Position numbers and translations under genes: made by a program. Source: Minisyncoccota bacterium (GTDB taxonomy: Bacteria; Patescibacteriota; Minisyncoccia; Phycocordibacterales; UBA9973). Taken from it: 64,000 nt of DNA. This document shows positions 19,572 to 33,472 of this stretch, piece after piece. The DNA lies in assembly GCA_041659205.1 (NCBI GenBank), contig JBAZYS010000004.1, positions 587 to 64,586 of the forward strand. Reading direction: 5' to 3'. The notes below the pieces were generated by a model. The model was not told the DNA's origin, searched no databases, and worked only from the letters and a program-made list of their open reading frames with translations. Positions within the stretch are counted from its first letter, which is position 1. Each line of letters begins with the position of its first letter.

Positions 19572-19645
19572 TGGGAGATCGTCTAACGGTAGGACAGAGG
19601 CCTTTGAAGCCTTTAATCTAGGTTCGATTCCTAGTCTCCCAGCCA
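19572..19645 (+). tRNA. tRNA-Gln (anticodon UUG) with encoded CCA
   Basis: TGGGAGATCGTCTAACGGTAGGACAGAGGCCTTTGAAGCCTTTAATCTAGGTTCGATTCCTAGTCTCCCAGCCA. Anticodon loop CTTTGAA. T-loop TTCGATT. Confidence 0.85.
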
Positions 19646-19735: not shown

Positions 19736-19764
19736 CAAAAAAACACCCTAATCGGTGTTTTTTT
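19736..19764 (+). terminator. Rho-independent terminator downstream of tRNA-Gln
   Basis: A-run, ACACC-ctaatc-GGTGT hairpin, T6 run. Confidence 0.55.
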
Positions 19765-21853
19765 GTTTGGTCTGATTTATCTTTCGGAGAAACTCTGTAT
19801 ATGCTATATTAGATTTAATATGGATGAATTTTTGGCTAACCTTTTACCTGGAAATTATTGGATAACAAAATCCATGGAATTTTCAAAGACCAATACCAGT
19901 GGCACTCTATGGTATCTTAAAAAATGGTTTGTTTACTATTACTATATTTTCTTTAAAAAAACGATACACGAGAATGATTATTTAGAAATAATAGAAATTT
20001 TTGATAAATTTATAATATCGCTAGATTCACGTGTCCAGGATAAAGCCAGGGGATTTTTTTATGAAATAGATATAAGGGCAAATTTTACAAGAATGAATGC
20101 TTTTTGTGACACCAGCGGAACTGTCTTCCCATCAGCTCGAGAAGAAGCCCAATCCATGGTTGAAGCTAAAAAGTTTTATTTTATGTATGTTATGGGCATA
20201 GGAGGACAAAGTGGTTATAAAAAAGAAATATTAGAACTTATCCAAGCTGGCACCTCATACACTGAGATAAAAAAAGTTATGGTAGAAAAAATGGAAAGTG
20301 ATGGAATACAATCGAACGATATAAAAATTCAATTTTCAGATTTTCCCGCCGCTATTCGCAATGAGAGACAAATATTTTTTTACTATGGGTTATTTCATGG
20401 TAGCGACAAGAAAGATTTGTCTGGTTTCTATACTATGACTCGACTAGGTAGATCAATAATATCTGCAACATTCTATGAATTAATAATTATATGGGAACAT
20501 CAAAAATTAAAGATGATATCCCAAAATCCAGATACGAAAATTGATTTAGGTAGCCATACCGTTAATACAAATTTGAATTATCCTGCTTTTGGTATCCATT
20601 ACCATCCATATGTAGCACTGTTAAAGACTCTAACAAACTTACAAACAACCAGTAAAGAAATCTATCAATTTTATATTGCTAGACTAAAAAATTCTCACGA
20701 TTTGAATGTTCTTTCGGAAAAAGTTAAGACCACACCTGCAGCGATAGAAGATATAAAAACAAAAATTGCATCTTTTAACAGAAAGGGAGATTTAGCAACG
20801 GAAGATTTTCATAAAGAATTTAAAAAATATGTCTTGGGGATTAGTAGTCTACCTTTAGATAATAATACTAATTTGTTCTCTTTTCTTTCTGAAGATGGAC
20901 TTGAGGTTGAGGATAATCCAAAAATTAGTTTTGTAATTAAATGCTACGACATAATTGCTAAATACTTAGATTTAAAAAATTCAGATAACTATAAAAACTT
21001 TGAAGGTAGTTTAAGACAATATTATCTTGCGCAAGTTAATAAAACTCCTTTCGAATATGACCCAGAAATAACATATGAATGGCATAAATATATAATATCT
21101 CCCGAGACTGCAATTATTTTAAGTGTTATCTACATATACTGCGCGCTAAAAAATAATAAATATGGTTTTGATTTAAGTGAAGCAGAAATTAAAGCCAACT
21201 ATAAGGAATTCAAAAACCTTTTGGAAATCACGGGTATTGGTAAGCAAAGTGATTTTATAGAAAACATACAACGAATTCAATCAGAACTCTCAGAAGGATC
21301 ATTGATGATGGCTTACGATACAGAGGAAGAGGAAATTCCTACTGTGTTTGATGAACTGGTTGATGAAAGCAAACTTGCTGAAATTTCAAAACGTACTAGT
21401 GCATTTAATGTTACCAGAAAAAGAAGTTCTGAAGTCATAAATGCTGTCAGAAGTTATTATCGAAAAAACTTTGAGCTTCCACCGGATAATCTTATTAAGT
21501 GTGATGCTTGTAGTGAGAAAACTTTTATGACAAAAGGTCAGTATGCTTATCTGGAATTTCATCATTTCATTCCTTTCTCTACTGATAATGGTCCGGATCA
21601 TTATCTAAATTTAGTTGGAATCTGTCCAATTTGTCACCGAAAATTCCATCATGCCACTAAAGATGTTAGGAAGGCTCTTTATGAAAACCTGTCAACAAAC
21701 AATAATATGAGAAAAACTCTAGATTTTCGTGTAAATAAATTATACGAGGAACGTGTACTCGAGCCATTAAATATTGAATTTCTCAGAAAGGAAAATATCA
21801 TCTCAAGGGAGAAATACGAAACTTACATGAATCAAGAAATTGTTGTTAGTTAA
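19763..21853 (+). CDS. large protein with a C-terminal HNH endonuclease domain (probable restriction endonuclease of the adjacent R-M module; likely true start is ATG 19820)
   Basis: C-terminal CDACSEK...EFHHFIPFS...NLVGICPICHRKFHH is the CxxC...HH...CxxC-H HNH/beta-beta-alpha-Me motif. Converges on and overlaps the MTase operon by 8 nt. Confidence 0.65.
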   Translation: MFGLIYLSEKLCICYIRFNMDEFLANLLPGNYWITKSMEFSKTNTSGTLWYLKKWFVYYYYIFFKKTIHENDYLEIIEIFDKFIISLDSRVQDKARGFFYEIDIRANFTRMNAFCDTSGTVFPSAREEAQSMVEAKKFYFMYVMGIGGQSGYKKEILELIQAGTSYTEIKKVMVEKMESDGIQSNDIKIQFSDFPAAIRNERQIFFYYGLFHGSDKKDLSGFYTMTRLGRSIISATFYELIIIWEHQKLKMISQNPDTKIDLGSHTVNTNLNYPAFGIHYHPYVALLKTLTNLQTTSKEIYQFYIARLKNSHDLNVLSEKVKTTPAAIEDIKTKIASFNRKGDLATEDFHKEFKKYVLGISSLPLDNNTNLFSFLSEDGLEVEDNPKISFVIKCYDIIAKYLDLKNSDNYKNFEGSLRQYYLAQVNKTPFEYDPEITYEWHKYIISPETAIILSVIYIYCALKNNKYGFDLSEAEIKANYKEFKNLLEITGIGKQSDFIENIQRIQSELSEGSLMMAYDTEEEEIPTVFDELVDESKLAEISKRTSAFNVTRKRSSEVINAVRSYYRKNFELPPDNLIKCDACSEKTFMTKGQYAYLEFHHFIPFSTDNGPDHYLNLVGICPICHRKFHHATKDVRKALYENLSTNNNMRKTLDFRVNKLYEERVLEPLNIEFLRKENIISREKYETYMNQEIVVS

Positions 21854-22589
21854 CTATTTTTATTTTTAAGTCTTTTGGCTTTGTTTCTATTGTAGTTTTT
21901 ATATAGGCTGGATTTATTTCATACCCTATGCAATTTCTTCCAGTTTTATAAGATGCAAAAAGAGTAGACCCTGATCCTAAAAATGGATCTAAAACCATGT
22001 CACCTTTTTTAGTAAAAAGATTGATACCTCGTTCGGCTAATGCAACAGGATAAAAAGCAGGATGAGGATGTTTTGATAAAATTGATCCGGCATTTTTTAC
22101 TATATGCCAAGAATTTATATCTTTTAACTGATCATTTTTGTAGTCATTATAGGTGTAATCTTTATTTAGTATAAGTTTTCCTTTTGAGGCAATAATAATA
22201 TATTCAAAACGATCTGTGAGTTTACTTTTTTGAGTTGGAACACCACTAGATTTATGCCAAATATTCATTTTGAAATTTTTAAACCCAATTTTTTTAAGTT
22301 GTTCGTAAAAATCAATATGTATAGGGTAATAATGATTCTGCACCGTTCTAGAGTTTATATTTATTGCAATAACTCCGTCTTTCTCTAAGACTCTAAAACA
22401 TTCTTTCCAAACCTTATTTAAATCATCAAGATATTTATTATAGGTTTGTTTATACCCAATTTGATCTTTAATTTCATAATCTTTTAAATCCCAATATGGA
22501 GGCGAAGTGAACACCAATTTAACAGAATGGTCCTTTAAATTAGACATTTTTAAACAAGATTTATTATATATGGTGTAGTTCTCCTTCAT
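21846..22589 (-). CDS. DNA methyltransferase, beta-class (N6-adenine or N4-cytosine)
   Basis: Motif IV TSPPYW near the N-terminus and motif I DPFLGSGST near the C-terminus. Confidence 0.85.
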   Translation of the reverse strand: MKENYTIYNKSCLKMSNLKDHSVKLVFTSPPYWDLKDYEIKDQIGYKQTYNKYLDDLNKVWKECFRVLEKDGVIAININSRTVQNHYYPIHIDFYEQLKKIGFKNFKMNIWHKSSGVPTQKSKLTDRFEYIIIASKGKLILNKDYTYNDYKNDQLKDINSWHIVKNAGSILSKHPHPAFYPVALAERGINLFTKKGDMVLDPFLGSGSTLFASYKTGRNCIGYEINPAYIKTTIETKPKDLKIKIVN

Positions 22590-23142
22590 CGATTTTTTTA
22601 AAATTATTACTGATACAAAGTAGTGTGTATTTTTTGTTTTTTATAGATGACAATTTAATTCTTTTTAATAATTCTTCTGGTGTTAAAATCTCATGCCCTA
22701 TAGTATTAGCTTTCCCATCATCAATTATTTTGATCCAAACAGTTCCTGGGTCCTTGCCTAATATGTTGTAATTCTTTGCTCGTTTACCCCATTCTACATC
22801 TTTCCATATATGTTTTTCTCTTATAGGATCCTTATTGAAAAAGTAATTTTCACCTAAATAAGCTCCAATTATAATATATATCTCTTTTGTTGGGGTTTTC
22901 TTATCTAACGTAAACGGATATATCCACGAAATTCTAAAGGCATGTTTAAAATATTTATTTATGAACGGCTCGAAAGTGAAGATATCTGAAGATTTCATAA
23001 TAAACCAAAATAAAGAATCTGGTGAAAAATTATAGTCCAGTTCTTTTGGATTTATGAATTTTTTTGAATTAGTTAAATCAATAACAGCAGATCCTATTAT
23101 TTTTTTATTTTCTTTTATCTTTTTCATCTTTGACATCATCAA
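22564..23142 (-). CDS. hypothetical protein sandwiched between two methyltransferases (possible R-M specificity/control or nuclease component)
   Basis: Translationally coupled (overlaps both flanking MTase genes). No recognised motifs. Confidence 0.35.
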   Translation of the reverse strand: MMMSKMKKIKENKKIIGSAVIDLTNSKKFINPKELDYNFSPDSLFWFIMKSSDIFTFEPFINKYFKHAFRISWIYPFTLDKKTPTKEIYIIIGAYLGENYFFNKDPIREKHIWKDVEWGKRAKNYNILGKDPGTVWIKIIDDGKANTIGHEILTPEELLKRIKLSSIKNKKYTLLCISNNFKKIDEGELHHI

Positions 23143-23998
23143 TTCTTTTCTGAGACACCTTACAATAATCTAAGTCAAGATCTATACCAATGAAATTTCT
23201 TTTTAATTCTCTACTAACTTTTGCAGTTGTTCCACTGCCTAAGAAGATATCTACCACCATATCTCCCTTATTTGATGAAGCTTTAATTATTCTCTCGATT
23301 AATTTTTCTGGGAATTGGCATGGGTGAATAGTTTTTTCGTTGCTAACATTAACAACTCTATCAATATACAAGAAATTATCACTTAGATCAGACTGACTTC
23401 TTTCATTGTCTTTTTTAACTTGTTCAATAAAATATTTTATTTCTTCTGGTTTTAAATCTTTACTTTTAAATTCCCAAACATCTGTTGGGTTTTTACCTTT
23501 TGGATTTACTCTTGGATCATTTTGCCACTTTGCTGGAATACGAATATCATCTAAATTAAATTTGTAATTGTCTTTATCTTTTACAAACCAAAGTATGTTT
23601 TCATATCTACCTGATAATCTGTTTTTGGTATTAATTCCACCTTCAAAATGCCAAATTATCCAATTTTTTAAATAAAATCCTGCATCTTTAAAAATCTTGT
23701 AATAAATTGCTCCTAATGGAATTATTTCATTATCAAGTGGTGTTTGTGCGACATTCCAAAAGACTGAGCCGTTTGATGCCAATTTATCATAGAGTAAATT
23801 TACTGTTTTCGTATGATATTCAAGATAGTCTGCAAAAGATTTATCTATTTCGTATTTTTTACCTACGAAGTACCCAGGACTTGTAACCATTAAATCAATA
23901 GAATTATCATTAAAATCAGCAAGGGCTAAATTTGTATCACTATTAATTATATAATCTTTTTTACCTTTTATATATTTTTTTGTTATTGAAGTTTTCAT
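23105..23998 (-). CDS. DNA methyltransferase, beta-class (second MTase of the module)
   Basis: Motif IV-like TSPGYF near the N-terminus and motif I DIFLGSGTT near the C-terminus. Confidence 0.8.
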   Translation of the reverse strand: MKTSITKKYIKGKKDYIINSDTNLALADFNDNSIDLMVTSPGYFVGKKYEIDKSFADYLEYHTKTVNLLYDKLASNGSVFWNVAQTPLDNEIIPLGAIYYKIFKDAGFYLKNWIIWHFEGGINTKNRLSGRYENILWFVKDKDNYKFNLDDIRIPAKWQNDPRVNPKGKNPTDVWEFKSKDLKPEEIKYFIEQVKKDNERSQSDLSDNFLYIDRVVNVSNEKTIHPCQFPEKLIERIIKASSNKGDMVVDIFLGSGTTAKVSRELKRNFIGIDLDLDYCKVSQKRIDDVKDEKDKRK

Positions 23999-24095: not shown

Positions 24096-25415
24096 CTATA
24101 ATAATCCAATCTCCTTATCTTTTAATACTATTTTACTCTTTAGACATCCTAGCAATTCACGTTTTTCAACACCTTGCCCCTCTTTCAATATGTACTTTGC
24201 ATAATTTCGTATATCGATATCTTTAACCTCAATTTTATCTTTGATTCCAAGAACTGATCTTTGAAACTTTTTTATCCTTTCAACTTCTGTTTTAATTTTT
24301 TCTTTTATACCTATTTCATTAATATCTATTTTTTCTATCAATTCTTCAAACTGCTTAACTAGATCAATTTCATTAATATAGCCACATTTGCAATCTCTAT
24401 CTTTAGATTTGTTGCAACCATAATAAACATGTCGGTGTACATTACCATTCTTTTGTTTCTTAAACTTTTCATCTGGGGTTATGCCTGATCCACATAGTCC
24501 ACAAGTCATTAACTTGGTGAAAGCAAATTCCTTACCCTCTGACCTAACAAACTGACTTTTGATTTGTGCTTGTACTTCATTAAACAATTCCTTAGTTATG
24601 ATTGGTTCATGTTTTCCTGTGTACCAGTTACCACTTTTAACTGGATACTCAAATACTCCATAATAGAAGTGGTTTTGAAGAATCATATAAATATTACCTA
24701 AACTTAGATTTTTGTTTCCACTAGCAGTTTTGAAATTTAGATCAAACTTAAGCCATTGATATATCTTTCTTCCACTCCATTTTTCATAAGCAACTTTTTC
24801 AAACATCTTTTTAATAATAGGTGCTCTATCAGGATCAATAATAGCCTGACACTTTCTATCAACTCTTTTTTCTTTTAAATAGCCGGTAGGAGCAGGTCCA
24901 GGCCATAATCCCATCTCCACTCTTGTTCTTAGACCTCGTTTAACATTGATACTTTTATTATCGTTTTCTAATTTTGCTTGAGAACATAAAATCATTAAAA
25001 GAAATTTTTCACTTGGTGTGTTTGTGAATGATTGTCCGAAAGTTCTTATCTCAACTAATAATTTCTGATCCATTAGATCAACTATTGATCCTAAATCACC
25101 AGCATTTCTTGAAAGACGATCAGGATGCCACACAAGTATTCCATTAAATCTTTCTCTTTTTATATCTTCCAATATCTCTTTATATACTGGTCGCTGTCCT
25201 GAATCTTTAGCTGAATGTGCCTCTCTTCTAACATCTACGATGTTAAGATTTTCTCTATCTGCTATAGCCAACATTTCTTTAACCTGAGAATCAATTGAAA
25301 GAGCTTGTTTCTCATCTGATTCAGTTGACTTTCTAGCATATAAAACATAATTAATTTTTACTGTCGGAATAATAGCTCTTGTGCCAATTAGTCCAAAATT
25401 TGTTTGTGTCTCCAT
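24096..25415 (-). CDS. large serine recombinase (resolvase/invertase catalytic domain plus recombinase and zinc-ribbon domains)
   Basis: N-terminal YARKSTESDEKQALSIDSQ (catalytic Ser region), then ...HPDRLSRN. C-terminal Cys cluster (CGLCGSG...CNKSKDRDCKC). Confidence 0.85.
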   Translation of the reverse strand: METQTNFGLIGTRAIIPTVKINYVLYARKSTESDEKQALSIDSQVKEMLAIADRENLNIVDVRREAHSAKDSGQRPVYKEILEDIKRERFNGILVWHPDRLSRNAGDLGSIVDLMDQKLLVEIRTFGQSFTNTPSEKFLLMILCSQAKLENDNKSINVKRGLRTRVEMGLWPGPAPTGYLKEKRVDRKCQAIIDPDRAPIIKKMFEKVAYEKWSGRKIYQWLKFDLNFKTASGNKNLSLGNIYMILQNHFYYGVFEYPVKSGNWYTGKHEPIITKELFNEVQAQIKSQFVRSEGKEFAFTKLMTCGLCGSGITPDEKFKKQKNGNVHRHVYYGCNKSKDRDCKCGYINEIDLVKQFEELIEKIDINEIGIKEKIKTEVERIKKFQRSVLGIKDKIEVKDIDIRNYAKYILKEGQGVEKRELLGCLKSKIVLKDKEIGLL

Positions 25416-25419
25416 ACCT

Positions 25420-25750
25420 CATGATGTCAGAGAAAGGGTCTTTTGCTAAGACTCGCTTGTTGGCAACTTGTTGGTAACTTTCCTCTGTGATTTAAAGGTT
25501 CTGCGATAGGATGGGCTTGGAATAATAGGGTCGAAAGTGGTATTATTCATTTACAAGTAAATAAGTAGTAGCCTAAACCTTTGGAAACAAAGGCATGGCG
25601 AAGAAGTCGATCAAGCGTAAAGAACCTATCATATAGGGTCGCTTGATCGCCATATTGGGAAACCAGTATGAGTACCGCAAGGTACTACCTATGTGGTAGG
25701 CTTTTTGCGTCTTACCCTAGGATTTTATAAATAAAACGCAACAAAAAAAT
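25420..25750. other. GC-rich structured non-coding region upstream of the serine recombinase gene (candidate recombination site or regulatory RNA)
   Basis: No ORF. Several perfect hairpins (TCGATCAAGCG/CGCTTGATCG 10 bp, GTACCgcaaGGTAC, GGTCTTttgctaAGACT). Confidence 0.3.
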
Positions 25751-25753
25751 ACC

Positions 25754-26233
25754 ATGAGCGATCAAGCTGGTAAAAAATTGTGTCCGCATTGCAAGCAGGA
25801 AGTAGATATAAAAGCGAGTCGATGTCCACATTGTCAGGGGAAGATATATGTTTGGACATGGAGTAAAAAGTTAATAGCAGGATTTATTGTCTTTATATTC
25901 TTAAGTGTCATTTTCTCTAGCGGATCAAGTAGATCAAGTACCCCTGTTACTACTCAACAAGGTCCTAGTAATGTAGAAGTATGTGTTGAATCAGAACATA
26001 TCCTTGAAGGATTTTTGAAATCACCATCAACTGCAAAATATCCAACATGTAATAGCATTACTATCGAAAGATTAGCCAATGATCAATTCAATGTCAGATC
26101 ATATGTTGACTCTCAAAATGGATTCGGGGCTATGGTGAGAAGTAACTGGTCAGTTAAGTATCATTACACAGACAGTGGAACACGAACACAATTAGATTCA
26201 GTTGTAATTGATGGGAAAGAAATGTATAAGTAA
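25754..26233 (+). CDS. zinc-ribbon/TM-anchored hypothetical protein
   Basis: CPHCKQ...CPHCQG ribbon, one TM, Ser-rich linker. Confidence 0.4.
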   Translation: MSDQAGKKLCPHCKQEVDIKASRCPHCQGKIYVWTWSKKLIAGFIVFIFLSVIFSSGSSRSSTPVTTQQGPSNVEVCVESEHILEGFLKSPSTAKYPTCNSITIERLANDQFNVRSYVDSQNGFGAMVRSNWSVKYHYTDSGTRTQLDSVVIDGKEMYK

Positions 26234-26235
26234 AT

Positions 26236-26676
26236 TTATTTCTTTTTCTTTTTGGTTGGTTTAACATCTTTCTGTTTTTCTTCATTGGCAGGTTTCTTAA
26301 ACCATTTATCTTGGAATTTTTTTAGCCTTTCTGCTCCAAGTTTTACCTTACGATCATATTCTTCTTTTGTCTCGCGTTCATTATGTATATGAATATGAGG
26401 TCTTCTAAATTCAGGATGCCTACAGGCTAACCAAAACTTGGTATAACCAGGATCCTTATTTTGGATTCCACCAAGCACATTACTCTCCGCAAAATCATTG
26501 ACTAAACGGATACCCATTCCCATGGCTTCTTCAACAAGCCCCCTAAATTCAAAGTCTTCATTCATCCAACGATAGAAAGTATTTCTAGATATACCAACCT
26601 TTTCGCATACGACAGAAATTATTGGAGTCTTCTCTAATTCCTCTATGAATTTTTTCTTTACACTAGCGTTCTTCAT
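26236..26676 (-). CDS. HTH protein resembling a phage terminase small subunit
   Basis: N-terminal HTH (VCEKVGISRNTFYRWMNED), FWLACRHPEF motif, Lys-rich tail. Confidence 0.45.
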   Translation of the reverse strand: MKNASVKKKFIEELEKTPIISVVCEKVGISRNTFYRWMNEDFEFRGLVEEAMGMGIRLVNDFAESNVLGGIQNKDPGYTKFWLACRHPEFRRPHIHIHNERETKEEYDRKVKLGAERLKKFQDKWFKKPANEEKQKDVKPTKKKKK

Positions 26677-27931
26677 AGTGTTCTATGATCGCTTTGCGAC
26701 CTGTTAGTTTCTCGTATCTGTGGATGATTAAGTCGCAAAATTGTGGTTCTAGTTCACATCCATATACTCTTCGACTAAGAGCTTCTCCTGCGATAATAGT
26801 GCTACCTGATCCCAAGAAACTATCTAAGATTATGTCATCAACCTTGGTGCATCTTTTGATAGCTTTTTCGTAAAGTTGTGGAGGCTTGCTGGTCGCATGT
26901 GTATATTCTTTGGCTGGGAGTCGCTTAACTGCCCATATGTCCGATATTTGCTCAAGTAGATTATTCCCCGTACCCATTTCTTTGTTCATCACTTCGTTTA
27001 GATTTGTAACTGTTTCGGCTAAGTATGGTTTACCACGAATACCATACACTGCCGGTTCGTAATTTTTATTGAACGCTACAGAAGGTACGGGATTTTGCGA
27101 ATTTTTTAGCCAAATTGCCACTCGCTTATTGTTAATGCCGAGCGAACGATAAATGTCTTGGACTACACCGATATAAATTTGATCGCAAAAATAAAACACG
27201 TGAGTGTCGCTATGTGATACTGCAAGTGCACATTCAAGACTATCCTTTAAGAATTTTTTATATTCCTCAAACGTACGATGATCATTTACTTGACCACCAT
27301 ATGATTGATTTCCACCCAAACCACTATCATAATTTACATCCAGATTATACACGGAGTCGCTAAAAATCATTGATGCTTTTTCTTGTCCAAGTAATCGTTT
27401 TAGATTTTCTTGTTTTGTGGAATCTCCACACAATAACCTATGCTTGCCCAAAACTATAATATCGCCAAGCTTTGTTATTGGTTTCTTAATTTTCTTTAAT
27501 TCTTTTTCGATTTCAAAATTATCATCAATGACTTCTTTTTCCTTATCCCAAATTTTTGTGAGATTGATTTCATCAAACCCAGAATCAATGAGAACATCAA
27601 ACTTAAATGATTTTAGGGACTGGAAATCCCATTCGCCATCATTCAAGTTGCTTTCTAGAGCTATTTTTGTTCTTTCATCTTTTGTGAGGCTACGACTTGG
27701 CACTAAAACATTTACTTTTTTTACTCCAAGTTGCTGAAGAACAACTTTTCGCTGATTTCCAGAGAGTATCGTATTATCTGTATCAATCACGATTACATCA
27801 TGAAAACCACGTTGTATTATTCTTTCTTTCAACTTTTCTAAACCCAACTTTGTTATCTTTCTTGGATTGTCTTTCCAGACTAATAAATTTTCGACATCCC
27901 TCACTTCTGTAAACCATTGTAATTTTTGCAT
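26663..27931 (-). CDS. ParB-like nuclease domain fused to a DNA methyltransferase (phage-type orphan MTase)
   Basis: N-terminal ParB/Sulfiredoxin-like region (VWKDNPRKI...ILSGNQRK). C-terminal MTase motif I ILDSFLGSGSTIIAGE. Confidence 0.8.
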   Translation of the reverse strand: MQKLQWFTEVRDVENLLVWKDNPRKITKLGLEKLKERIIQRGFHDVIVIDTDNTILSGNQRKVVLQQLGVKKVNVLVPSRSLTKDERTKIALESNLNDGEWDFQSLKSFKFDVLIDSGFDEINLTKIWDKEKEVIDDNFEIEKELKKIKKPITKLGDIIVLGKHRLLCGDSTKQENLKRLLGQEKASMIFSDSVYNLDVNYDSGLGGNQSYGGQVNDHRTFEEYKKFLKDSLECALAVSHSDTHVFYFCDQIYIGVVQDIYRSLGINNKRVAIWLKNSQNPVPSVAFNKNYEPAVYGIRGKPYLAETVTNLNEVMNKEMGTGNNLLEQISDIWAVKRLPAKEYTHATSKPPQLYEKAIKRCTKVDDIILDSFLGSGSTIIAGEALSRRVYGCELEPQFCDLIIHRYEKLTGRKAIIEHYEER

Positions 27932-28243: not shown

Positions 28244-28744
28244 TTAACAAGTAAACAAATTAAGATTTATTAAACGAAAAGTCATAGCTTTTTCACTAAC
28301 TTTATACATATCACATAGTGTCTTTATTTCTTTTTCTGAAATACCATGAGAGTTAAGTTTTTTTACATCTTCTTCTAAGAATTTTTTGGGCATTAAAAGA
28401 GCGGCAGCAAATTGATCTGCTTCAGTTTCTTTAAAATTTTTAATATCATTTTCTTTTAATTCCTTTCTGTAATCGACAAAAGTGTCGTCTTGTTGATGAA
28501 GGAAAAAATGTCCCAATTCATGAGCAATGCTAAATCTTTGTCTAACAGGTGCCTCATTATTGTTTATTCCAATTAGTGCATGTCCATCCTTTCTGATAAG
28601 CATTCCAGAGAATTCCTTACTTGGAGCACGGCTAATTTTAATCTTTTGAGCAATTGCAATTTCTTCTATTGGGACAGGTCTACTTTTAATATTTAAAGTA
28701 TCTAAAATCTCTTGTGTTTTTATTTCAATTTTCTGTGTGATCAT
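28244..28744 (-). CDS. ImmA/IrrE-family metallopeptidase (CapP-like)
   Basis: HEXXH motif HELGHFFLH. Directly downstream of, and co-directional with, the XRE gene. Confidence 0.8.
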   Translation of the reverse strand: MITQKIEIKTQEILDTLNIKSRPVPIEEIAIAQKIKISRAPSKEFSGMLIRKDGHALIGINNNEAPVRQRFSIAHELGHFFLHQQDDTFVDYRKELKENDIKNFKETEADQFAAALLMPKKFLEEDVKKLNSHGISEKEIKTLCDMYKVSEKAMTFRLINLNLFTC

Positions 28745-28750
28745 GATATA

Positions 28751-29107
28751 TTACTTTTTATTTTTAAACAGTCGCTCTGCCCATGCGGCAGCTTTTTCTC
28801 CTTTCTCCTGAGCAACTTTACGAATATCGACTTTAGTAATGGCGTATCCGTCTGGTAAGACGGGAAAAAAATCTTCAACTTCACAATTAAACAAAGTAGC
28901 CAATTTCCAAAGTGATACAGCTGAAACGTTATTCCTACCATTCTCTATATGTGTAACCGCTTCACGAGATATTTTTAAATGATCGGCAACTGTTTGAGCA
29001 CTAAGTCCAAGTGACCCTCGCAATTGCTTTATTGTCTTGCCAATTTCTTTTTTAATTTCATTGTCTGCGGCATCTCTATCGTCTATTGTAACTTTTTTCT
29101 TTTTCAC
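28751..29107 (-). CDS. XRE-family helix-turn-helix transcriptional regulator (CapH-like)
   Basis: HTH_XRE core LGLSAQTVADHLKISREAVTHIENGRNNVSAVSLWKLATLF. Confidence 0.8.
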   Translation of the reverse strand: MKKKKVTIDDRDAADNEIKKEIGKTIKQLRGSLGLSAQTVADHLKISREAVTHIENGRNNVSAVSLWKLATLFNCEVEDFFPVLPDGYAITKVDIRKVAQEKGEKAAAWAERLFKNKK

Positions 29108-29142
29108 ATGAAATAGGTAATGTTGATAATGCGGTCCAAGAT

Positions 29143-29187
29143 ATACCGACTGGTATTCTTTGTACCAAGGCTGGTACTATAAATACC
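29143..29187. promoter_or_regulatory. cluster of short palindromes (operator-like sites) in the divergent promoter region between the XRE regulator and the Ubl operon
   Basis: ATACCgactGGTAT (29143-29156), GTACCaaggctGGTAC (29162-29177), GGTActataaaTACC (29173-29187). Further GGTAT half-sites at 29215-29219. Confidence 0.5.
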
Positions 29188-29250
29188 AATTGATACATCT
29201 AGTAACCTTGCTATGGTATCAGGTTTGGGTGTAATATTCAAGTACGGTCA

Positions 29251-29547
29251 GTGGGCGCCGTATTTATTATAAAAGCCGACAGAATTAAATTTATGGTAGA
29301 CAATAATAAAAAAGAAAAGGATAGTGTCGTGGTTCACATTGATAAATCAGAATATCGTTCTCCTAATCCCACTACTGGTGTGGCGCTTTACGCTTTGGGA
29401 AACATCAATTCGGCCGAATATGATTTATATCAAGAGGTACCTGGTCACGGAGATGATAAACTAATACCTGCTGACACAACAGAGATTAAACTTAAAAATG
29501 GAGAACATTTTTACAGTGTTCAGAAAAAAATTAACCCAGGAGCATAA
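29251..29547 (+). CDS. ubiquitin-like beta-grasp protein of the multiubiquitin family (single domain; GTG start at 29251 or ATG at 29293)
   Basis: Pattern VHIDKSEYRSP...TGVALYALG...YDLYQEV...DDKLIPADTTEIKLKNGEHFYSV matches my recollection of multiubiquitin-domain proteins. C-terminus ...INPGA. First gene of a tightly spaced 4-gene operon with E2/E1/JAB. Confidence 0.55.
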   Translation: MGAVFIIKADRIKFMVDNNKKEKDSVVVHIDKSEYRSPNPTTGVALYALGNINSAEYDLYQEVPGHGDDKLIPADTTEIKLKNGEHFYSVQKKINPGA

Positions 29548-29550
29548 GCA

Positions 29551-29937
29551 ATGGCAGCAATAGAGTTACAAAAAGAGGACGCTTCGTACTTAGCTGAGAA
29601 AAGTTATCAGTATGAATTGTTCCCCGAGAATAACGAGTTGCATGTGATTATAAAGGAATTTCCGTTTCCAACTAGTTTATATTCGCCAAGTACAGCAGAG
29701 TTGTTGATTAAAATTCCACCAGGATATCCCAATACTCAATTGGATATGTTTTGGACTAATCCAGAAATCAAGAAAGTTGATGGTCAGGCTCCTGCAGCAT
29801 CTGAAACTCGTGAACAACATCACGGGCGTAGCTGGCAACGTTGGTCTAGACATTACGCGTCGGGGTGGCGACCTGGGATCGACGGACTAAGAAGTTTTAT
29901 TCAATCTATTAATGCCGAGCTACTAACGGGCAGATAA
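29551..29937 (+). CDS. E2/UBC-like protein (prokaryotic E2 family) with no cysteine in the predicted product
   Basis: 128 aa. Position in the operon (3 nt after the Ubl stop). IKIPPGYPNTQLDMFWTNPEI resembles the E2 HPN-loop region. Zero Cys residues in the translation. Confidence 0.45.
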   Translation: MAAIELQKEDASYLAEKSYQYELFPENNELHVIIKEFPFPTSLYSPSTAELLIKIPPGYPNTQLDMFWTNPEIKKVDGQAPAASETREQHHGRSWQRWSRHYASGWRPGIDGLRSFIQSINAELLTGR

Positions 29938-29941
29938 CAAC

Positions 29942-31327
29942 ATGGAATACAGCATATCTTTTAAAGAGGAAGACTATCAACGCCTCGTAGAGCATTTATT
30001 CTCTAATCGTACTACGGAATGCGCAGCATATCTTTTATGCGGTGTATCTAGGAGCGACACTGAGATACGCTTGCTTGTTCGTTCAGTTATTCCTGTAGAG
30101 GATGCGGATATTGAAGAATCTTCTCCTGTGCATATGAAAATAAGGTCGCTGTCGTATGTTCGCGCAATTAAACAGGCACGCAAGGCAGGTGAAGGATTTA
30201 TTTTTGTGCATTCGCACCCTAAAGAAAGCCCTCAGCATTCTAAGCAAGATGATATAGAGGAGGAAAAACTTTTCAAAACTGTTTATCAAAGAATTCCCGA
30301 TATGATACATGCTAGTTTGGTCTTATCGGAGCCATCACGATTTTCTGCACGTGTGTGGTTGGATGATGGGTCTAACATTCCAGTCAGTGTAGTTAGGTCA
30401 ATTGGGCATAGATTCCGTTTTTTTAGCAACCACGAAGACAAAAACCCTCATCCAGAATTTTTTGATCGGCAAATTAAAGCTTTCGGCAAAGACATACAAT
30501 CAACTCTTAACAAACTAAAGATTGGTATAGTGGGTCTTGGTGGAACTGGTTCAGCGGTGGCTGAGCAGCTTATTAGACTTGGAGTTGGTACCTTATATCT
30601 TTTTGATGATGATACCTTTGATTCTACAAATATAAATAGAGTTTACGGTTCACGTCTATCTGATACAAAAAAACTAAAGGTTGAGATAATACAACGCCTG
30701 GCTACGGAGATAGGGTTAGGGACTATCGTTAAAATTTTCAACAAAAAAATAACCTATCAGAGTGTTTTGCAAGATTTAAAAAAATGCGATATTGTTTTTG
30801 GTTGTACTGATGACAATTGGGGTAGGTCAATTTTATCTCGCCTCGCTGTCTATTATTTAATCCCAGTCATTGATATGGGCGTAAAAATAAACTCTAAAAA
30901 TAACGAGATAGTTTCTATCCATGGACGCGTGACTGTACTCTTACCAGACCATGCGTGTTTATTTTGCAGAGATCGCATTGATTCAGGTATAATGAGTACA
31001 GAAATTGCGGAAGCAACTAACCCTAGCGATGCGGCAACACGGAAGAAAGAAGGTTACATTCCGGAATTACCAGACAGTGCACCAGCGGTCATACCATTTA
31101 CCACAATAGTTGCAGCTACTTCAGTCAGTGAACTTCTGCATCGCCTCACAGGTTTTCTTGGTGAAGATCGAAAAACCAACGAAGTGATACATCTCTTTGA
31201 CCAGGAAAGAATCGGTAAGAATGCTCGTGCTTCTGAAAATGGATGTGTTTGTGGCGATAAAAATCATATTGCTCGTGGAGATGTCGATCCACATGCACTT
31301 GGATTAACATGGAGAAATGAAGATTAA
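29942..31327 (+). CDS. JAB/JAMM deubiquitinase-like peptidase fused to an E1-like (ThiF/MoeB) adenylyltransferase
   Basis: JAMM motif FVHSHPKESPQHSKQD (HxHx7Sx2D). E1 Rossmann IGIVGLGGTGS, DDDTFDSTNINR, FGCTDDNWGRS. Zinc motifs CLFC and CVCGDKNH. Confidence 0.85.
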   Translation: MEYSISFKEEDYQRLVEHLFSNRTTECAAYLLCGVSRSDTEIRLLVRSVIPVEDADIEESSPVHMKIRSLSYVRAIKQARKAGEGFIFVHSHPKESPQHSKQDDIEEEKLFKTVYQRIPDMIHASLVLSEPSRFSARVWLDDGSNIPVSVVRSIGHRFRFFSNHEDKNPHPEFFDRQIKAFGKDIQSTLNKLKIGIVGLGGTGSAVAEQLIRLGVGTLYLFDDDTFDSTNINRVYGSRLSDTKKLKVEIIQRLATEIGLGTIVKIFNKKITYQSVLQDLKKCDIVFGCTDDNWGRSILSRLAVYYLIPVIDMGVKINSKNNEIVSIHGRVTVLLPDHACLFCRDRIDSGIMSTEIAEATNPSDAATRKKEGYIPELPDSAPAVIPFTTIVAATSVSELLHRLTGFLGEDRKTNEVIHLFDQERIGKNARASENGCVCGDKNHIARGDVDPHALGLTWRNED

Positions 31328-31661
31328 AAAACTTTTTTACAATTGGTGGAATTCAGCTCGTTCTTTTAAATACAAGAAGGTTTATTTTGTTTCCTCTATA
31401 AATAAAATACCTGAAGGTAAATTAGAGAAACATATTTATATTGTATCTAAAGAAGGAAAAAATCTATGGGTGGTTATGGATTGTCCAAAAGGACATGACA
31501 GACGCATAGAGGTAAATTTAATGAAAAGCATTAAACCTTTCTGGGAAATACAACTTCAGAACGGTAAGCTTACATTATATCCATCCATAGTTGTTTCAGG
31601 AAAATCCTGTAATTGCCATTTTTGGCTAAGAGATAATAAAGTATACGATGCACACTGGTAG
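31317..31661 (+). CDS. small Cys/His-rich protein, probably DUF6527-like, the usual partner of multiubiquitin/E1/E2 operons
   Basis: Overlaps the E1 gene stop by 11 nt. CPKGHDRR...SCNCHF putative metal ligands. DUF6527 assignment is from memory. Confidence 0.45.
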   Translation: MKIKKLFYNWWNSARSFKYKKVYFVSSINKIPEGKLEKHIYIVSKEGKNLWVVMDCPKGHDRRIEVNLMKSIKPFWEIQLQNGKLTLYPSIVVSGKSCNCHFWLRDNKVYDAHW

Positions 31662-32119: not shown

Positions 32120-33472
32120 ATGAGTGAGAAATATTTAAAATCTCATCAATACTATATTGATCTTTACGATCGTGGTACCGTAGAGGTTTGTCGTAGGCTA
32201 GATAAGCCATCTCCTGAACCTGATAAAGAAGAACTTAAAGAAAAAAAGATAACTAGAAGACAAGCAAAAGTTTTAGATAAAGGTGTTCGAGATTGGATTA
32301 TTCATTTTCAAGCTGGTGAAAGATATCTTAAAAAAGACTCAACAATTCGTGAGTGGATGGATAGAGATCAAAAGAGAGATGAGTTATATGAAAATGCAGA
32401 AGCTCCTGAAGATATTCGCTGTCTTACTTGTCGTAACAAAATGAAACCGACATTTAAAGAACTCTGGTTAGAATCCGATAAACCAGATCGTGTTTTATTT
32501 ATGTACGATTGTCCTAATAAATGTTTACCGAGACGATCATTCTTTCATGATGGTGAAGAGTGGAGAACAAAACCACATCTTTGTATCCGTTGTAATTCTC
32601 CAGTCACCCAAACTTCAGAAGATGATGGTGTAAAAATGATTACTACTTCTACTTGTAAGAAATGTGGGCATATTGAGAAAGAAGAATATACATGGAGTGT
32701 TAAAAAAGAGGAAGATGGTCTCGATGAGAATTTTGCAGTTGATAGAGATCGTTTCTGTTTAAGCGATGAGGACGGTAAAAAGTTTCAGGATGAAAAATGG
32801 AACATGGAAAGTGCTGGTAAGTTCATGGAAGAGTGGAAAGAAAAAGAGAAAGCAAAAGAAGAAAAATTAAAACAAAATCCAAAGGGCTTTCATCTTGAGG
32901 GTGCAGGTTACACTTGTTTTATCTGTGGTGATAGTACTCCTGAGGGTGATAATTGGTACGACAAGTGGGGTATAAAATGTTTAGTCTGCCAAAAAGCAAT
33001 CGATGAGGGTGAAATACCACCTGCTTTGGCTAAATATCAAGACACTTGGTATACGAAGCATGACTTTGAATATTACTTTAATGTTAATCGTTTTGGTTTA
33101 CAAAAGTGGATTAAAAACGGAATATTAAGACCTAGGACAATCAGTCATTATGGTAAAGGCGAACATACACAAATCTTTCTTATGAAAGATAACAAAGGAC
33201 TATTGCCACCTAAAAAATTACTTAAAGGTCATTCAGTAAAAACAGTAGAAAAAGACGGCAAAGAATATACTCATATGGAAAAGTGGTATAGATTTGTTGA
33301 TCCTTTTAAATATCTTAAGAAATACAGAATTATGAGATATTTAAGAGTTGTTCCACCCGAAGAGGTAAAAGCAAAAGAAGAGGCAGAAAAGAAAAAACAG
33401 GAAGAAAAACAGGCACGTCGAGAACAGAGGAGACTTTTAAAACAAAAAATTAATCGTAAAAAGATAAATTAA
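32120..33472 (+). CDS. Lys/Glu-rich protein with six CxxC pairs (multi zinc-ribbon), hypothetical
   Basis: CLTCRN, CPNKC, CIRCNS, CKKCGH, CFICGD, CLVCQK. Strongly charged KE-rich N- and C-termini. Confidence 0.45.
   Translation: MSEKYLKSHQYYIDLYDRGTVEVCRRLDKPSPEPDKEELKEKKITRRQAKVLDKGVRDWIIHFQAGERYLKKDSTIREWMDRDQKRDELYENAEAPEDIRCLTCRNKMKPTFKELWLESDKPDRVLFMYDCPNKCLPRRSFFHDGEEWRTKPHLCIRCNSPVTQTSEDDGVKMITTSTCKKCGHIEKEEYTWSVKKEEDGLDENFAVDRDRFCLSDEDGKKFQDEKWNMESAGKFMEEWKEKEKAKEEKLKQNPKGFHLEGAGYTCFICGDSTPEGDNWYDKWGIKCLVCQKAIDEGEIPPALAKYQDTWYTKHDFEYYFNVNRFGLQKWIKNGILRPRTISHYGKGEHTQIFLMKDNKGLLPPKKLLKGHSVKTVEKDGKEYTHMEKWYRFVDPFKYLKKYRIMRYLRVVPPEEVKAKEEAEKKKQEEKQARREQRRLLKQKINRKKIN

What the first reader, a model, noticed from the sequence alone, without database searches (positions are those of the whole stretch)
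28244..31661. Ubiquitin-like conjugation operon (Ubl / Cys-less E2-like / JAB-E1 fusion / DUF6527-like) under a divergent XRE + ImmA (CapH/CapP-like) control module
Four tightly spaced or overlapping genes on the + strand form the operon. A single-domain beta-grasp protein resembling the multiubiquitin family ends in ...PGA. An E2/UBC-like 128-aa protein follows. The third gene product carries a complete JAMM motif (HSHPKESPQHSKQD) fused to an E1/ThiF adenylation domain (GLGGTGS, DDDTFDSTNINR, CxxC pairs). The fourth is a small Cys/His protein of the type that usually accompanies such operons. Divergently transcribed from the same intergenic region are an XRE-type HTH gene followed by an ImmA/IrrE HEXXH metallopeptidase. 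This is the arrangement described for CapH/CapP, which couple CBASS and other defence operons to DNA damage. The shared 140-bp promoter region contains three or more GGTAY/RTACC palindromes that look like operator sites. Bil/Bub-type Ubl defence systems have been characterised, but to my knowledge this variant has not been functionally described: a JAB-E1 fusion with a Cys-less E2 partner and an HTH/peptidase switch, sitting in a tRNA-associated island of a putatively CPR-like genome. The Ubl C-terminus (Gly followed by one Ala) suggests JAB-dependent maturation to expose Gly.
Basis: partly seen in the sequence, partly recalled or inferred. Interest (0 to 1): 0.9.

Follow-up and report, generated by a model that had tools for sequence, protein, structure and literature searches.

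The report
Type I Bub ubiquitin-like conjugation operon
This is an intact bacterial ubiquitin-like protein-tagging operon with its repressor/peptidase switch, in a tiny CPR bacterium; the gene reading is correct, but the system (Type I "Bub", formerly 6E/DUF6527) was described and biochemically characterised in 2024-2026, so it is a new member of a known kind.

Summary
All six genes are real and sit at the stated coordinates. On the + strand lies a tightly packed operon. It encodes a single-domain multiubiquitin-type Ubl (BubA, ends NPG-A), a Cys-less Prok-E2_E (BubB), a JAB-E1 fusion (BubCD) and DUF6527 (BubE). Every catalytic residue defined for Citrobacter Bub is present and invariant in 79-82 orthologs. 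Divergently transcribed are an XRE HTH and an M78 peptidase (PADLOC capP, 1e-38). The shared intergenic region holds two perfect TGGTA-N7-TACCA palindromes 21 bp apart (0.06 expected by chance). The claim that this variant is undescribed is wrong. It is a Type I Bub operon (Ye, Gong, Chambers & Corbett). Their Table S1 already lists this exact layout, including separate Ubl and E2 genes. They report CapH+CapP beside 31% of Bub operons, including in CPR hosts. Three modest differences remain. The Ubl/E2 split (same frame, TAA) is a conserved arrangement in 67 of 86 relatives, not a mutation. The Ubl is probably 84 aa, not 98. The peptidase is a short 166-aa form lacking the GAF domain of CapP/IrrE, so it is ImmA-like and its trigger is uncertain. 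The biological role of Bub is still unknown. Interest is low to moderate.

The parts
28244..28744 (-). Short CapP/ImmA-like Zn metallopeptidase (166 aa). HEXXH = H75-E76-x-x-H79, with third ligand E106. It has no GAF domain and no cysteine-switch loop.
   Evidence: Pfam Peptidase_M78 6e-20. PADLOC capP 1.2e-38, but matching only profile positions 3-154 of 242. The PDB alignment covers only IrrE residues 82-172 of 301 and CapP residues 56-146 of 291. No ORF or domain remnant lies downstream. The L087 ortholog is 41% identical and also short, at 185 aa.
28751..29107 (-). CapH-like XRE-family HTH repressor (118 aa from GTG). The HTH spans residues ~20-80 and is followed by a ~35-aa C-terminal tail.
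   Evidence: Pfam HTH_3 1.5e-11. PADLOC capH 9.5e-6 and HTH_VI 3e-10. It is 56% identical to the HTH gene in the same position in L087.
29151..29167 (.). Operator-like palindrome 1: TGGTATTCTTTGTACCA (TGGTA-N7-TACCA).
   Evidence: Exact pattern search gave 2 hits in 64 kb, both in this region, against 0.06 expected; 0 of 100 shuffles reached 2. It is a direct-repeat copy of operator 2, with 21-bp spacing.
29172..29188 (.). Operator-like palindrome 2: TGGTACTATAAATACCA. It abuts a weak sigma-70-like -35/-10 pair (TTGATA 29190 / TATGGT 29217) facing the Bub operon.
   Evidence: The promoter-like site comes, a consensus match only and not above chance.
29139..29200 (.). Larger imperfect inverted repeat (29-nt arms, 76% complementary) that encloses both operators.
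29293..29547 (+). BubA: a single beta-grasp, multiubiquitin-type Ubl (84 aa from ATG 29293; the alternative GTG at 29251 gives 98 aa). It ends ...INPG-A, i.e. the conserved Gly plus a one-residue tail.
   Evidence: Close homologs start at the aligned MDKK and end in NPG+1 residue. An independent gene call gives 84 aa. 31 of 54 orthologs hit PF14452. The family profile hits PDB 9cd2 at 1.2e-6. The profile search found 2,991 relatives, and all those listed are Multi_ubiq. The AF2 model has pLDDT 83.8 with b-b-a-b-b-b topology. Foldseek top hits are 8u38, 9d5b, 9d59, 9cd2 and 9ea8_B.
29551..29937 (+). BubB: Cys-less E2 (Prok-E2_E, 128 aa). Catalytic Ser99 and His101 lie in the invariant QRWSRH motif, and Asp65 in DMFW. 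An AGGAG Shine-Dalgarno sequence sits inside the Ubl's P-G-A codons, 8 nt upstream of the ATG.
   Evidence: Pfam 2e-38. PDB Citrobacter BubB 2.3e-12, with QRWSRH and LDMF aligned. Invariant columns D65, Q96-H101. Junction sequence.
29942..31327 (+). BubCD: a JAB/JAMM peptidase (residues ~1-165) fused to an E1 adenylation domain (residues ~170-461). JAMM residues are E26, H90, H92, S100, D103. The nucleotide loop is G198-S204. R233 and D290 are adenylation-domain residues. The crossover-loop tyrosine is Tyr372. C339, C342 and C437 form a probable Zn site.
   Evidence: Pfam ThiF 6e-36 and Prok-JAB 8e-8. The best PDB match is Citrobacter BubCD 9ea4, 8e-34, over residues 9-405. All listed residues are 99-100% conserved in 79 orthologs.
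31317..31661 (+). BubE: DUF6527 Ser-His protease (114 aa). The catalytic dyad is Ser90/His101. The likely Zn ligands are C56, H60, C98 and C100. The N-terminus is rich in hydrophobic and aromatic residues. The gene overlaps the bubCD stop by 11 nt.
   Evidence: Pfam DUF6527 3.4e-16. The family is named BubE in the newer Pfam release. S90, H101 and C56 are invariant in 82 orthologs. Function according to Ye et al..

Best explanation
The locus is an intact Type I Bub (bacterial ubiquitination-like; formerly 6E.1/DUF6527) operon, in its split-gene form, together with a divergent repressor/peptidase switch. It sits in an integrase-bearing island of a Candidatus Paceibacterota (CPR) chromosome.

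Proposed mechanism:
(a) Inferred. A dimer of the XRE/CapH-like repressor occupies the two TGGTA-N7-TACCA operators, which are 21 bp apart and so on the same face of the helix. This represses the divergent promoters.
(b) Inferred by analogy with CapH/CapP, IrrE/DdrO and ImmR/ImmA. A stress signal, most likely DNA damage or phage infection, activates the M78 peptidase. The peptidase cleaves the repressor and de-represses the operon. Because this peptidase lacks the GAF domain, the trigger may not be direct ssDNA binding.
(c) Inferred from sequence conservation and the published biochemistry of Citrobacter Bub. The JAB domain of BubCD removes the single Ala after the conserved NPG glycine of BubA. 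The E1 domain adenylates that glycine and takes it onto Tyr372 as an oxyester. BubA then passes to Ser99 of BubB, assisted by His101 and Asp65, and from there to lysines of target proteins that are still unknown. BubE (Ser90/His101) reverses the conjugation.

The biological output is probably anti-phage or stress protection, but it is unproven for any Bub operon.
For: Domain hits support every gene. The best solved-structure relatives are Citrobacter BubCD (8e-34) and BubB (2e-12). Catalytic residues are invariant across 68-82 orthologs.

The Ubl fold and family are established. Split Ubls in 67 loci share the NPG+tail C-terminus.

The genes are tightly packed: a 3-nt gap, a 4-nt gap and an 11-nt overlap.

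Table S1 lists this exact layout with CapP/CapH.

The operators are non-random. An orthologous HTH + short M78 pair sits next to an orthologous Bub operon in L087, with a different outer neighbour. The same divergent layout occurs in 16 of 86 loci across phyla. Close relatives carry a LexA-type repressor at the same position, which points independently to DNA-damage control.
Against: No experiment exists on this locus. Every biochemical step is transferred from a protein set that is only ~30-45% identical.

The peptidase lacks the GAF/linker domains that bind ssDNA in CapP and IrrE, so the activation step is the weakest link.

The promoter predictions are not above chance.

The operator sequence is not conserved in the L087 ortholog, which has different palindromes.

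No Bub operon has yet been shown to protect against phage.

The left flank is phage-derived (integrase, terS-like protein, ParB-methylase). The switch could therefore also serve the mobile element.
Confidence: 0.9

Rival explanations
1. The XRE + short M78 pair is the immunity/induction module (ImmR/ImmA type) of the integrase-bearing, phage-derived element. It controls that element's own genes. The Bub operon is neighbouring cargo with an independent promoter.
For: The peptidase has ImmA-like size and a single domain, with no GAF. Immediately to the left are a ParB-like methyltransferase, a terminase-small-subunit-like HTH protein and a large serine integrase, all with phage-family hits. Homologs of the methylase and p146 recur near Bub in another Patescibacteria MAG, L016, consistent with a shared mobile element.
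Against: The pair travels with Bub rather than with the phage-like genes. In L087 the orthologous pair sits divergently against an orthologous Bub operon, and its other neighbour is a UvrD helicase. The same divergent M78-HTH | Ubl layout is seen in 16 loci from several phyla and in 31% of published Bub operons. The only strong palindromes lie in the intergenic region shared with bubA. No phage structural genes are present in the island. Only 1 relative was found in 2.9 million viral contigs.
Confidence: 0.08
2. The operon is a decaying or inactive remnant. On this reading, the in-frame TAA between Ubl and E2 is a nonsense mutation that broke a BubAB fusion, and the Cys-less E2 and E1 are dead enzymes.
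For: The Ubl and E2 ORFs are in the same frame and separated only by TAA plus one codon. The main text of Ye et al. describes Type I Bub as having a BubAB fusion. The E2 has no cysteine.
Against: Separate Ubl and E2 genes occur in 67 of 86 relatives. In 55 of those the two genes are in different frames or overlap, and same-frame cases (12 of 67) are below the one-third expected by chance. Close homologs all end in NPG plus one residue. The E2 has its own ATG and an AGGAG Shine-Dalgarno sequence. All catalytic residues are intact. The lack of Cys is the defining feature of Bub chemistry, which runs through Tyr/Ser oxyesters. Table S1 lists split operons as Type I Bub.
Confidence: 0.02
3. The ThiF-like enzyme and the small beta-grasp protein act as a sulfur-carrier pair (ThiS/MoaD type) for cofactor or thio-modification biosynthesis, not for protein conjugation.
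For: NCBIfam's top hits for the E1 domain are ThiF/MoeB adenylyltransferases, all below their cut-offs. The E1 retains a CxxC...CxC cysteine cluster, as MoeB/ThiF do.
Against: The closest solved relative is BubCD, not ThiF/MoeB (8e-34 against ~1e-9). The operon encodes an E2, a JAB peptidase and a BubE deconjugase, none of which a sulfur carrier needs. The Ubl ends in NPG-x rather than GG and belongs to Multi_ubiq. No thiamine or molybdopterin genes are nearby.
Confidence: 0.01

Closest known systems
Type I Bub operon (6E.1 / DUF6527 operon): Citrobacter sp. RHBSTW-00271 BubAB-BubCD-BubE (Ye, Gong, Chambers & Corbett, bioRxiv 10.1101/2024.11.21.623953; PDB 9ea4, 9ea8, 9eae, 9eav)
   Same: The four functional modules occur in the same order: Ubl, Cys-less E2, JAB-E1 fusion and DUF6527. 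The catalytic residues are the same: JAMM Glu/Asp, adenylation Arg, crossover-loop Tyr, E2 Ser/His/Asp and the BubE Ser/His dyad. A conserved Gly lies at the Ubl processing site. The locus is associated with CapH+CapP and with a mobile island.
   Different: The Ubl and E2 are separate genes, whereas Citrobacter has a fusion. The Ubl has one beta-grasp domain, whereas Citrobacter BubA has three. The E1 keeps a C339/C342/C437 cluster that Citrobacter BubCD lacks. BubE uses C-H-C-C ligands instead of C-C-C-C. Sequence identity is only about 30-45%. The host is a CPR bacterium.
Split Type I Bub operons with CapP+CapH listed in Ye et al. Table S1 (e.g. Verrucomicrobium sp. 3C = locus L038; Hyphomicrobium denitrificans; Mucilaginibacter sp. 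OK098)
   Same: The gene complement is identical: CapP, CapH, a separate Ubl, a separate E2, the DUB+E1 fusion and DUF6527. The L038 Ubl ends in NPG-T, also a one-residue tail.
   Different: In L038 the CapH and CapP genes are co-directional with the operon, and its CapP is 233 aa. In the window the pair is divergent and the peptidase is 166 aa.
CapH/CapP of E. coli MS115-1 and Thauera sp. K11 CBASS (Lau et al. 2022; Calloji et al. 2026), and Deinococcus DdrO/IrrE
   Same: An HTH repressor is paired with an HEXXH M78 peptidase next to the promoter of a defence-type operon. The hit to the PADLOC capP profile is strong (1e-38).
   Different: The window protein has only the peptidase core. It lacks the HTH-like linker and GAF domains that form the ssDNA groove, and it lacks the cysteine switch.
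ImmR/ImmA of Bacillus subtilis ICEBs1 and related prophage immunity modules
   Same: An XRE repressor is paired with a short single-domain M78 anti-repressor peptidase of about 170 aa, located in an integrase-bearing element. (The size and role of ImmA are recalled from established literature and from the discussion.)
   Different: Here the pair faces a Bub operon and co-occurs with Bub across phyla, rather than controlling excision or lytic genes. No sequence-level test against ImmA was run.
Bil (bacterial ISG15-like) systems and Type II CBASS Cap2/Cap3
   Same: These are also Ubl/E1/E2/JAB-based conjugation systems in bacterial defence islands.
   Different: Bil and Cap2 use catalytic cysteines and thioesters, and they lack DUF6527. 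The PADLOC E1-E2 profiles match only the adenylation core of the window protein.

Membership tests
Type I Bub (6E.1/DUF6527) operon | A DUF6527/BubE gene with an invariant Ser-His dyad and a Zn-binding cluster | tested here: met
   Pfam DUF6527 3.4e-16. S90, H101 and C56 are invariant in 82 orthologs. Four candidate ligands are present (C56, H60, C98, C100).
Type I Bub (6E.1/DUF6527) operon | A JAB/JAMM peptidase fused to an E1 adenylation domain, with a crossover-loop Tyr in place of the catalytic Cys | tested here: met
   Pfam Prok-JAB + ThiF. Citrobacter BubCD 8e-34 over residues 9-405, with the GY(I) motif aligned. E26, H90, H92, S100, D103, R233 and Y372 are 99-100% conserved.
Type I Bub (6E.1/DUF6527) operon | A Cys-less E2 (Prok-E2_E) with catalytic Ser/His plus Asp | tested here: met
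   Pfam 2e-38. Citrobacter BubB 2.3e-12. D65, S99 and H101 are invariant. The protein has no Cys.
Type I Bub (6E.1/DUF6527) operon | A multiubiquitin-type beta-grasp Ubl with a conserved Gly at the processing/activation site | tested here: met
   The window protein has no direct Pfam hit, but 31 of 54 orthologs hit PF14452. PDB profile hit. AF2 pLDDT 83.8. Foldseek top hits are BubA/multi-ubiquitin structures. NPG is invariant.
Type I Bub (6E.1/DUF6527) operon | Ubl encoded as a fusion to the E2 (BubAB), as stated in the paper's main text | tested here: not met
   A TAA stop and a separate ATG lie between the two genes. However, the paper's own Table S1 files split operons under Type I Bub, and the split form is the majority among relatives. 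This feature is therefore not truly defining.
Type I Bub (6E.1/DUF6527) operon | ATP-dependent Ubl-lysine conjugation through Tyr and Ser oxyester intermediates | not testable with these tools
   This requires biochemistry. It is inferred only from residue conservation.
CapH + CapP regulator pair | An adjacent HTH repressor gene and M78 HEXXH peptidase gene at the promoter of the controlled operon | tested here: met
   The gene pair overlaps or abuts, is divergent from bubA, and shares a 143-185 bp region with it.
CapH + CapP regulator pair | CapP three-domain architecture: peptidase, HTH-like linker and C-terminal GAF domain, forming the ssDNA-binding groove | tested here: not met
   The window protein is 166 aa, against 291-301 aa for CapP/IrrE. 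The alignment ends at IrrE residue 172 and CapP residue 146. It matches capP profile positions 3-154 of 242. No downstream remnant is present.
CapH + CapP regulator pair | A cysteine-switch loop between the HEXXH motif and the third Zn ligand (present in about 33% of CapPs, so not obligatory) | tested here: not met
   There is no Cys between H79 and E106 (sequence). Frequency.
CapH + CapP regulator pair | ssDNA-stimulated cleavage of CapH by CapP, and DNA-damage induction of the operon | not testable with these tools
   This requires cleavage assays and reporters.
ImmR/ImmA-type immunity module | An XRE repressor plus a short single-domain M78 peptidase | tested here: met
   The architecture consists only of a 118-aa HTH and a 166-aa M78. 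No direct sequence comparison with ImmA was run.
ImmR/ImmA-type immunity module | Controls excision or lytic genes of its own mobile element | tested here: inconclusive
   An integrase and phage-derived genes lie to the left. But the pair co-occurs with Bub, not with those genes, in L087, L015 and L037.

The most novel reading that the evidence does not exclude
The short, GAF-less CapP-like peptidase recurs with Bub in this CPR locus, in L087 and in two Acidobacteriota loci. It may be a distinct sensor class that does not bind ssDNA in the CapP/IrrE way. It might instead be activated by a partner such as RecA (as ImmA is) or by a phage product. If so, this Bub subtype would respond to a different trigger from the published CapH/CapP paradigm. 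A minimal six-gene version in a reduced CPR genome could serve as a compact model for finding Bub's still-unknown targets.
Probability: 0.3. Interest if true: 0.45.

Novelty: new member of a known kind. Interest (0 to 1): 0.25.

Why it matters
Bub is the most divergent known ubiquitin-like conjugation pathway: it has no catalytic cysteines and works through Tyr/Ser oxyesters. Its biological role is still unknown. This locus adds a compact and fully intact example from an ultra-small CPR bacterium. The survey made here shows that the split Ubl/E2 form, with an NPG+short-tail Ubl, is common across phyla, and that near-identical operons swap their upstream regulators (short CapP/CapH, a LexA-like repressor, an HTH-Panacea protein). 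That supports stress-inducible control as a general property of Bub. It does not change the published picture, and it does not make the open question (targets and function) more testable than the E. coli and Citrobacter systems already in hand.

Tried and rejected
1. Nonsense mutation or read-through at the in-frame TAA between Ubl and E2. Rejected: the split is conserved in 67 of 86 loci and mostly in other frames. Same-frame cases (12 of 67) fall below the chance expectation. The E2 has its own Shine-Dalgarno sequence and ATG.
2. Alternative genetic code (UGA=Gly in some CPR lineages). Rejected: the stop is TAA, long ORFs read cleanly under table 11, and the host is Paceibacterota.
3. The GTG start at 29251 giving a 98-aa Ubl. 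This is less likely than ATG 29293.
4. The first AF2 run, with 8 sequences, gave pLDDT 60.5 and was not used for fold search. It was replaced by a 71-sequence run.
5. The E2 alignment A1 (68 sequences) was too diverse for the locus scan. A2 was used instead.
6. A search for att-type direct repeats of the tRNA-Gln 3' end, to delimit the island, found none.
7. A second GGTA/TACC-rich stretch at ~25630 was considered as extra operators. It is a LOOT RNA.
8. The 123-aa membrane protein downstream of bubE was tested as a conserved fifth gene. It is not homologous to the gene at the same position in L087.
9. An intact-prophage context was tested. No structural or packaging genes other than a terS-like HTH were found, and only one relative occurs in viral contigs.
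10. Operator conservation in the L087 ortholog was tested. L087 has paired palindromes, but of a different sequence.

Full report
OBSERVATION.

On the minus strand lie two genes:
- A 166-aa protein (28244-28744) that hits Pfam Peptidase_M78 (6e-20) and the PADLOC capP profile (1.2e-38).
- A 118-aa protein (28751-29107) that hits HTH_3 (1.5e-11) and weakly hits capH (9.5e-6).

On the plus strand, four genes are packed with a 3-nt gap, a 4-nt gap and an 11-nt overlap:
- A small ORF, 29251/29293-29547.
- A 128-aa Prok-E2_E protein (2e-38) that contains no cysteine.
- A 461-aa Prok-JAB + ThiF fusion (8e-8 and 6e-36).
- A 114-aa DUF6527 protein (3.4e-16).

All the quoted sequence motifs are there.

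WHAT IT IS. A literature search for DUF6527 led directly to Ye, Gong, Chambers & Corbett (bioRxiv 10.1101/2024.11.21.623953; cited as Ye et al. 2026). They rename the '6E/DUF6527' operons Bub, for bacterial ubiquitination-like. They define Type I as Ubl + E2 + JAB-E1 fusion (BubCD) + DUF6527 (BubE). Their findings are:
- The JAB domain cleaves immediately after a conserved Gly of the Ubl.
- The pathway has no catalytic cysteines. It runs through a Ubl~Tyr oxyester on the E1 crossover loop and a Ubl~Ser oxyester on the E2, helped by a His and an Asp.
- DUF6527 is a Ser-His protease with a Zn cluster that removes conjugates.

By sequence, the best solved-structure relatives of the window proteins are exactly these: Citrobacter BubCD (8e-34 over residues 9-405) and Citrobacter BubB (2.3e-12).

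I checked each catalytic residue against alignments of orthologs recovered from 86 loci:
- BubB Asp65, Ser99 and His101, in the invariant DMFW and QRWSRH motifs.
- BubCD JAMM residues E26/H90/H92/S100/D103, adenylation-domain residues R233 and D290, and Tyr372, all 99-100% conserved in 79 sequences.
- BubE Ser90 and His101, invariant in 82 sequences.

The operon is therefore intact, not a relic.

THE UBL. The small protein has no Pfam hit of its own, so this was the one claim that needed real work.
- Orthologous Ubls taken from related loci form a clean family (A5).
- 31 of 54 members hit Pfam Multi_ubiq, best E-value 5.8e-13.
- The family profile hits the solved E. coli ZDHYS365 BubA structure at 1.2e-6.
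- It also retrieves 2,991 database proteins, and all of those listed are annotated multiubiquitin.
- An AlphaFold2 model built on a shallow alignment was poor, with pLDDT 60.5.
- With 71 sequences the model reached pLDDT 83.8 and beta-beta-alpha-beta-beta-beta topology.
- Its best Foldseek matches in the PDB are the bacterial multi-ubiquitin/BubA structures 8u38, 9d5b, 9d59, 9cd2 and 9ea8_B (TM 0.64-0.73, rmsd 1.6-2.4 A), followed by eukaryotic ubiquitin-like domains.

Close homologs begin at a Met that aligns with the internal ATG at 29293, and an independent gene call gives 84 aa. The real protein is therefore probably 84 aa, not 98.

THE SPLIT BETWEEN UBL AND E2. The Ubl and E2 ORFs are in the same frame and separated only by TAA and one Ala codon (...INPGA*AMAAIELQ...). 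[quoted passage not shown] So I tested whether this split is a nonsense mutation or a read-through site. It is neither.
- Of 107 database homologs of the E2, nearly all are standalone proteins of 120-140 aa.
- A scan of one genome per species found 545 relatives, of which 80 loci were fetched.
- In those 80 plus six other loci, 67 of 86 have a separate Ubl ORF upstream of the E2. Only 12 of the 67 are in the same frame, below the one-third expected by chance. About ten are true fusions.
- The split Ubls share a C-terminal [LI][NT]PG motif followed by a tail of 0-9 residues.
- The window's closest relatives all end in NPG plus one residue.
- The E2 has its own ATG, preceded by AGGAG, which lies within the Ubl's Pro-Gly-Ala codons.
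- Table S1 of Ye et al. files such split operons under Type I Bub, with CapP and CapH columns filled. One example is Verrucomicrobium sp. 3C, which is my locus L038.

The arrangement in the window is therefore already catalogued.

THE REGULATORY MODULE. The 143-bp region between the HTH start and the GTG at 29251 (185 bp to ATG 29293) contains two perfect 17-bp palindromes, TGGTATTCTTTGTACCA (29151-29167) and TGGTACTATAAATACCA (29172-29188). They are 21 bp apart, i.e. two helical turns, and lie inside a larger imperfect inverted repeat.
- The pattern TGGTA-N7-TACCA occurs nowhere else in the 64-kb window, and 0.06 matches are expected by chance.
- GGTA/TACC half-sites are 7 against 0.9 expected.
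- Promoter-like hexamers abut operator 2, but such matches are not above chance in this AT-rich DNA.

Ye et al. report CapH+CapP next to 168 of 544 Bub operons (31%). These include CPR Yanofskybacteria. The later CapK/CapS paper repeats this finding. By the published criterion the window pair would be called CapH+CapP. Its peptidase hits the capP profile far more strongly (1e-38) than the Table S1 example in L038 does (2e-8).

There is one real difference. Canonical CapP and IrrE are ~290-300-aa proteins with three domains. Their C-terminal GAF domain, together with the peptidase domain, forms the groove that binds ssDNA and activates cleavage. The window protein is 166 aa.
- It aligns only to the peptidase core (IrrE 82-172, CapP 56-146).
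- It has H75-E76-x-x-H79 and E106, but no cysteine-switch loop.
- No domain remnant follows it.

In size and architecture it resembles ImmA. Short forms (166-204 aa) and long forms (256-297 aa) both occur divergently upstream of Type I Bub Ubls, in 16 of the 86 loci. The activation signal for this switch therefore cannot simply be copied from CapP.

IS THE SWITCH LINKED TO BUB OR TO A PROPHAGE? The left flank is phage-derived: a ParB-like DNA methyltransferase (phrog_498, 8e-78), a terminase-small-subunit-like HTH protein, and a large serine integrase (phrog_95, 5e-64). This raises the rival that the XRE/M78 pair is the element's own immunity module. Several results speak against it.
- In L087, the HTH (56% identical) and the short M78 (41% identical) sit in the same divergent position against an orthologous Bub operon (E2 62% identical). 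Their other neighbour is a UvrD helicase.
- The same layout recurs in Acidobacteriota loci.
- No phage structural genes are found in the island.
- Only one relative exists among 2.9 million viral contigs.

Close relatives of the window operon (E2 61-65% identical) carry different regulators at the same spot. L001-L003 have a LexA-like S24 repressor, and L088 has an HTH-SocA/Panacea protein. This modular swapping, which includes the classic DNA-damage repressor, supports stress-inducible control of Bub as the common theme.

CONTEXT AND HOST. The exact E2 protein is annotated 'MAG: Candidatus Paceibacterota bacterium'. That is the CPR phylum Minisyncoccota. The window carries housekeeping genes (topoisomerase I, SerRS, DnaX) up to tRNA-Gln at 19572-19645. 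After that come an HNH protein, two N6/N4 methyltransferases, the integrase and the Bub locus. Housekeeping genes resume near 43.8 kb (DinB, a P-type ATPase, PBP2). No att-like repeat of the tRNA end was found. 'tRNA-associated island' therefore rests on proximity and gene content only.

MECHANISM (shown versus inferred).
- Shown by sequence and structure comparison: the identity of all six proteins, intact active sites, the conserved NPG-tail, non-random paired operators, and recurrent linkage of the HTH/M78 pair with Bub.
- Inferred from the Citrobacter/E. coli biochemistry: JAB trimming of the terminal Ala, adenylation, the Tyr372 and Ser99 oxyesters, lysine conjugation, and reversal by BubE.
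- Inferred by analogy with CapH/CapP, DdrO/IrrE and ImmR/ImmA: repression by the XRE dimer and de-repression through cleavage.
- Unknown: the trigger, given the missing GAF domain; the targets; and the biological role. No Bub operon has yet been shown to protect against phage.

VERDICT. This is an intact Type I Bub operon with a CapH/short-CapP-like switch. It is a new member of a known kind, in a CPR host. The most novel reading still open is that the GAF-less peptidase marks a different sensing mode (probability about 0.3). Overall interest is 0.25.

Noticed in passing
window 25570-25686 (+): A full-length LOOT RNA (Rfam RF03000; 85 bits against a gathering score of 46.4; E 1e-14). It lies in the 338-bp gap between the large serine integrase and the next gene. 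Its function is unknown. It accounts for a second GGTA/TACC-rich stretch that might otherwise be mistaken for extra operators.
   Followed up: partly
window 24096-27931 (-): A phage-derived block immediately left of the regulator pair. It comprises a large serine integrase (phrog_95, 5e-64), a 146-aa terminase-small-subunit-like HTH protein (phrog_4102, 2e-9) and a ParB-like + N6/N4 DNA methyltransferase (phrog_498, 8e-78). Homologs of the last two lie ~5 kb from the Bub E2 in another Patescibacteria MAG (L016).
   Followed up: partly
window 19763-23998: A restriction-modification-like cluster directly after tRNA-Gln, in the lowest-GC part of the window (0.28-0.32). It comprises a 696-aa HNH-domain protein, two N6/N4 methyltransferases (247 and 297 aa) and a 192-aa unknown protein.
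   Followed up: no
window 32120-33472 (+); L087 854-1927: A 450-aa protein rich in CxxC pairs with a Lys-rich tail. It has no Pfam or PHROG hit. It sits two genes downstream of bubE and has a strong homolog (1.3e-43) on the other side of the orthologous Bub locus in L087. It may be an island gene or an accessory. The 123-aa membrane protein between it and bubE is not conserved.
   Followed up: partly
L001-L003 (2498-3196, -), L088 (1386-2111, -), L087 (3924-4810, -): Bub operons with 61-65% identical E2 carry different divergent regulators at the same position: a LexA-like S24 repressor, an HTH-SocA/Panacea protein, or an HTH + short M78 pair. The regulators are swapped as modules.
   Followed up: partly
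window 31317-31661 (BubE residues 56-62, 98-100): In most orthologs (67 of 82) the Zn-cluster motif begins C-P-C (e.g. CPCGC). The window has C-P-K-G-H, and L001-L003 have C-P-Q-G-H. Both carry an extra Cys pair (C98, C100) before the catalytic His. This suggests a C-H-C-C ligand set in this CPR-associated clade.
   Followed up: partly
window 29942-31327 (BubCD C339, C342, C437): Three cysteines (CxxC ... C) are invariant in 79 orthologs of the split-type BubCD but absent from the solved Citrobacter BubCD. They probably form a structural Zn site retained from ThiF/MoeB-like ancestors.
   Followed up: partly
L001 5315-6271: In one contig carrying a close relative, no BubE gene was called in the ~950-bp gap after bubCD. 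Two sister contigs (L002, L003) do have it. This may be a deletion or a pseudogene.
   Followed up: no
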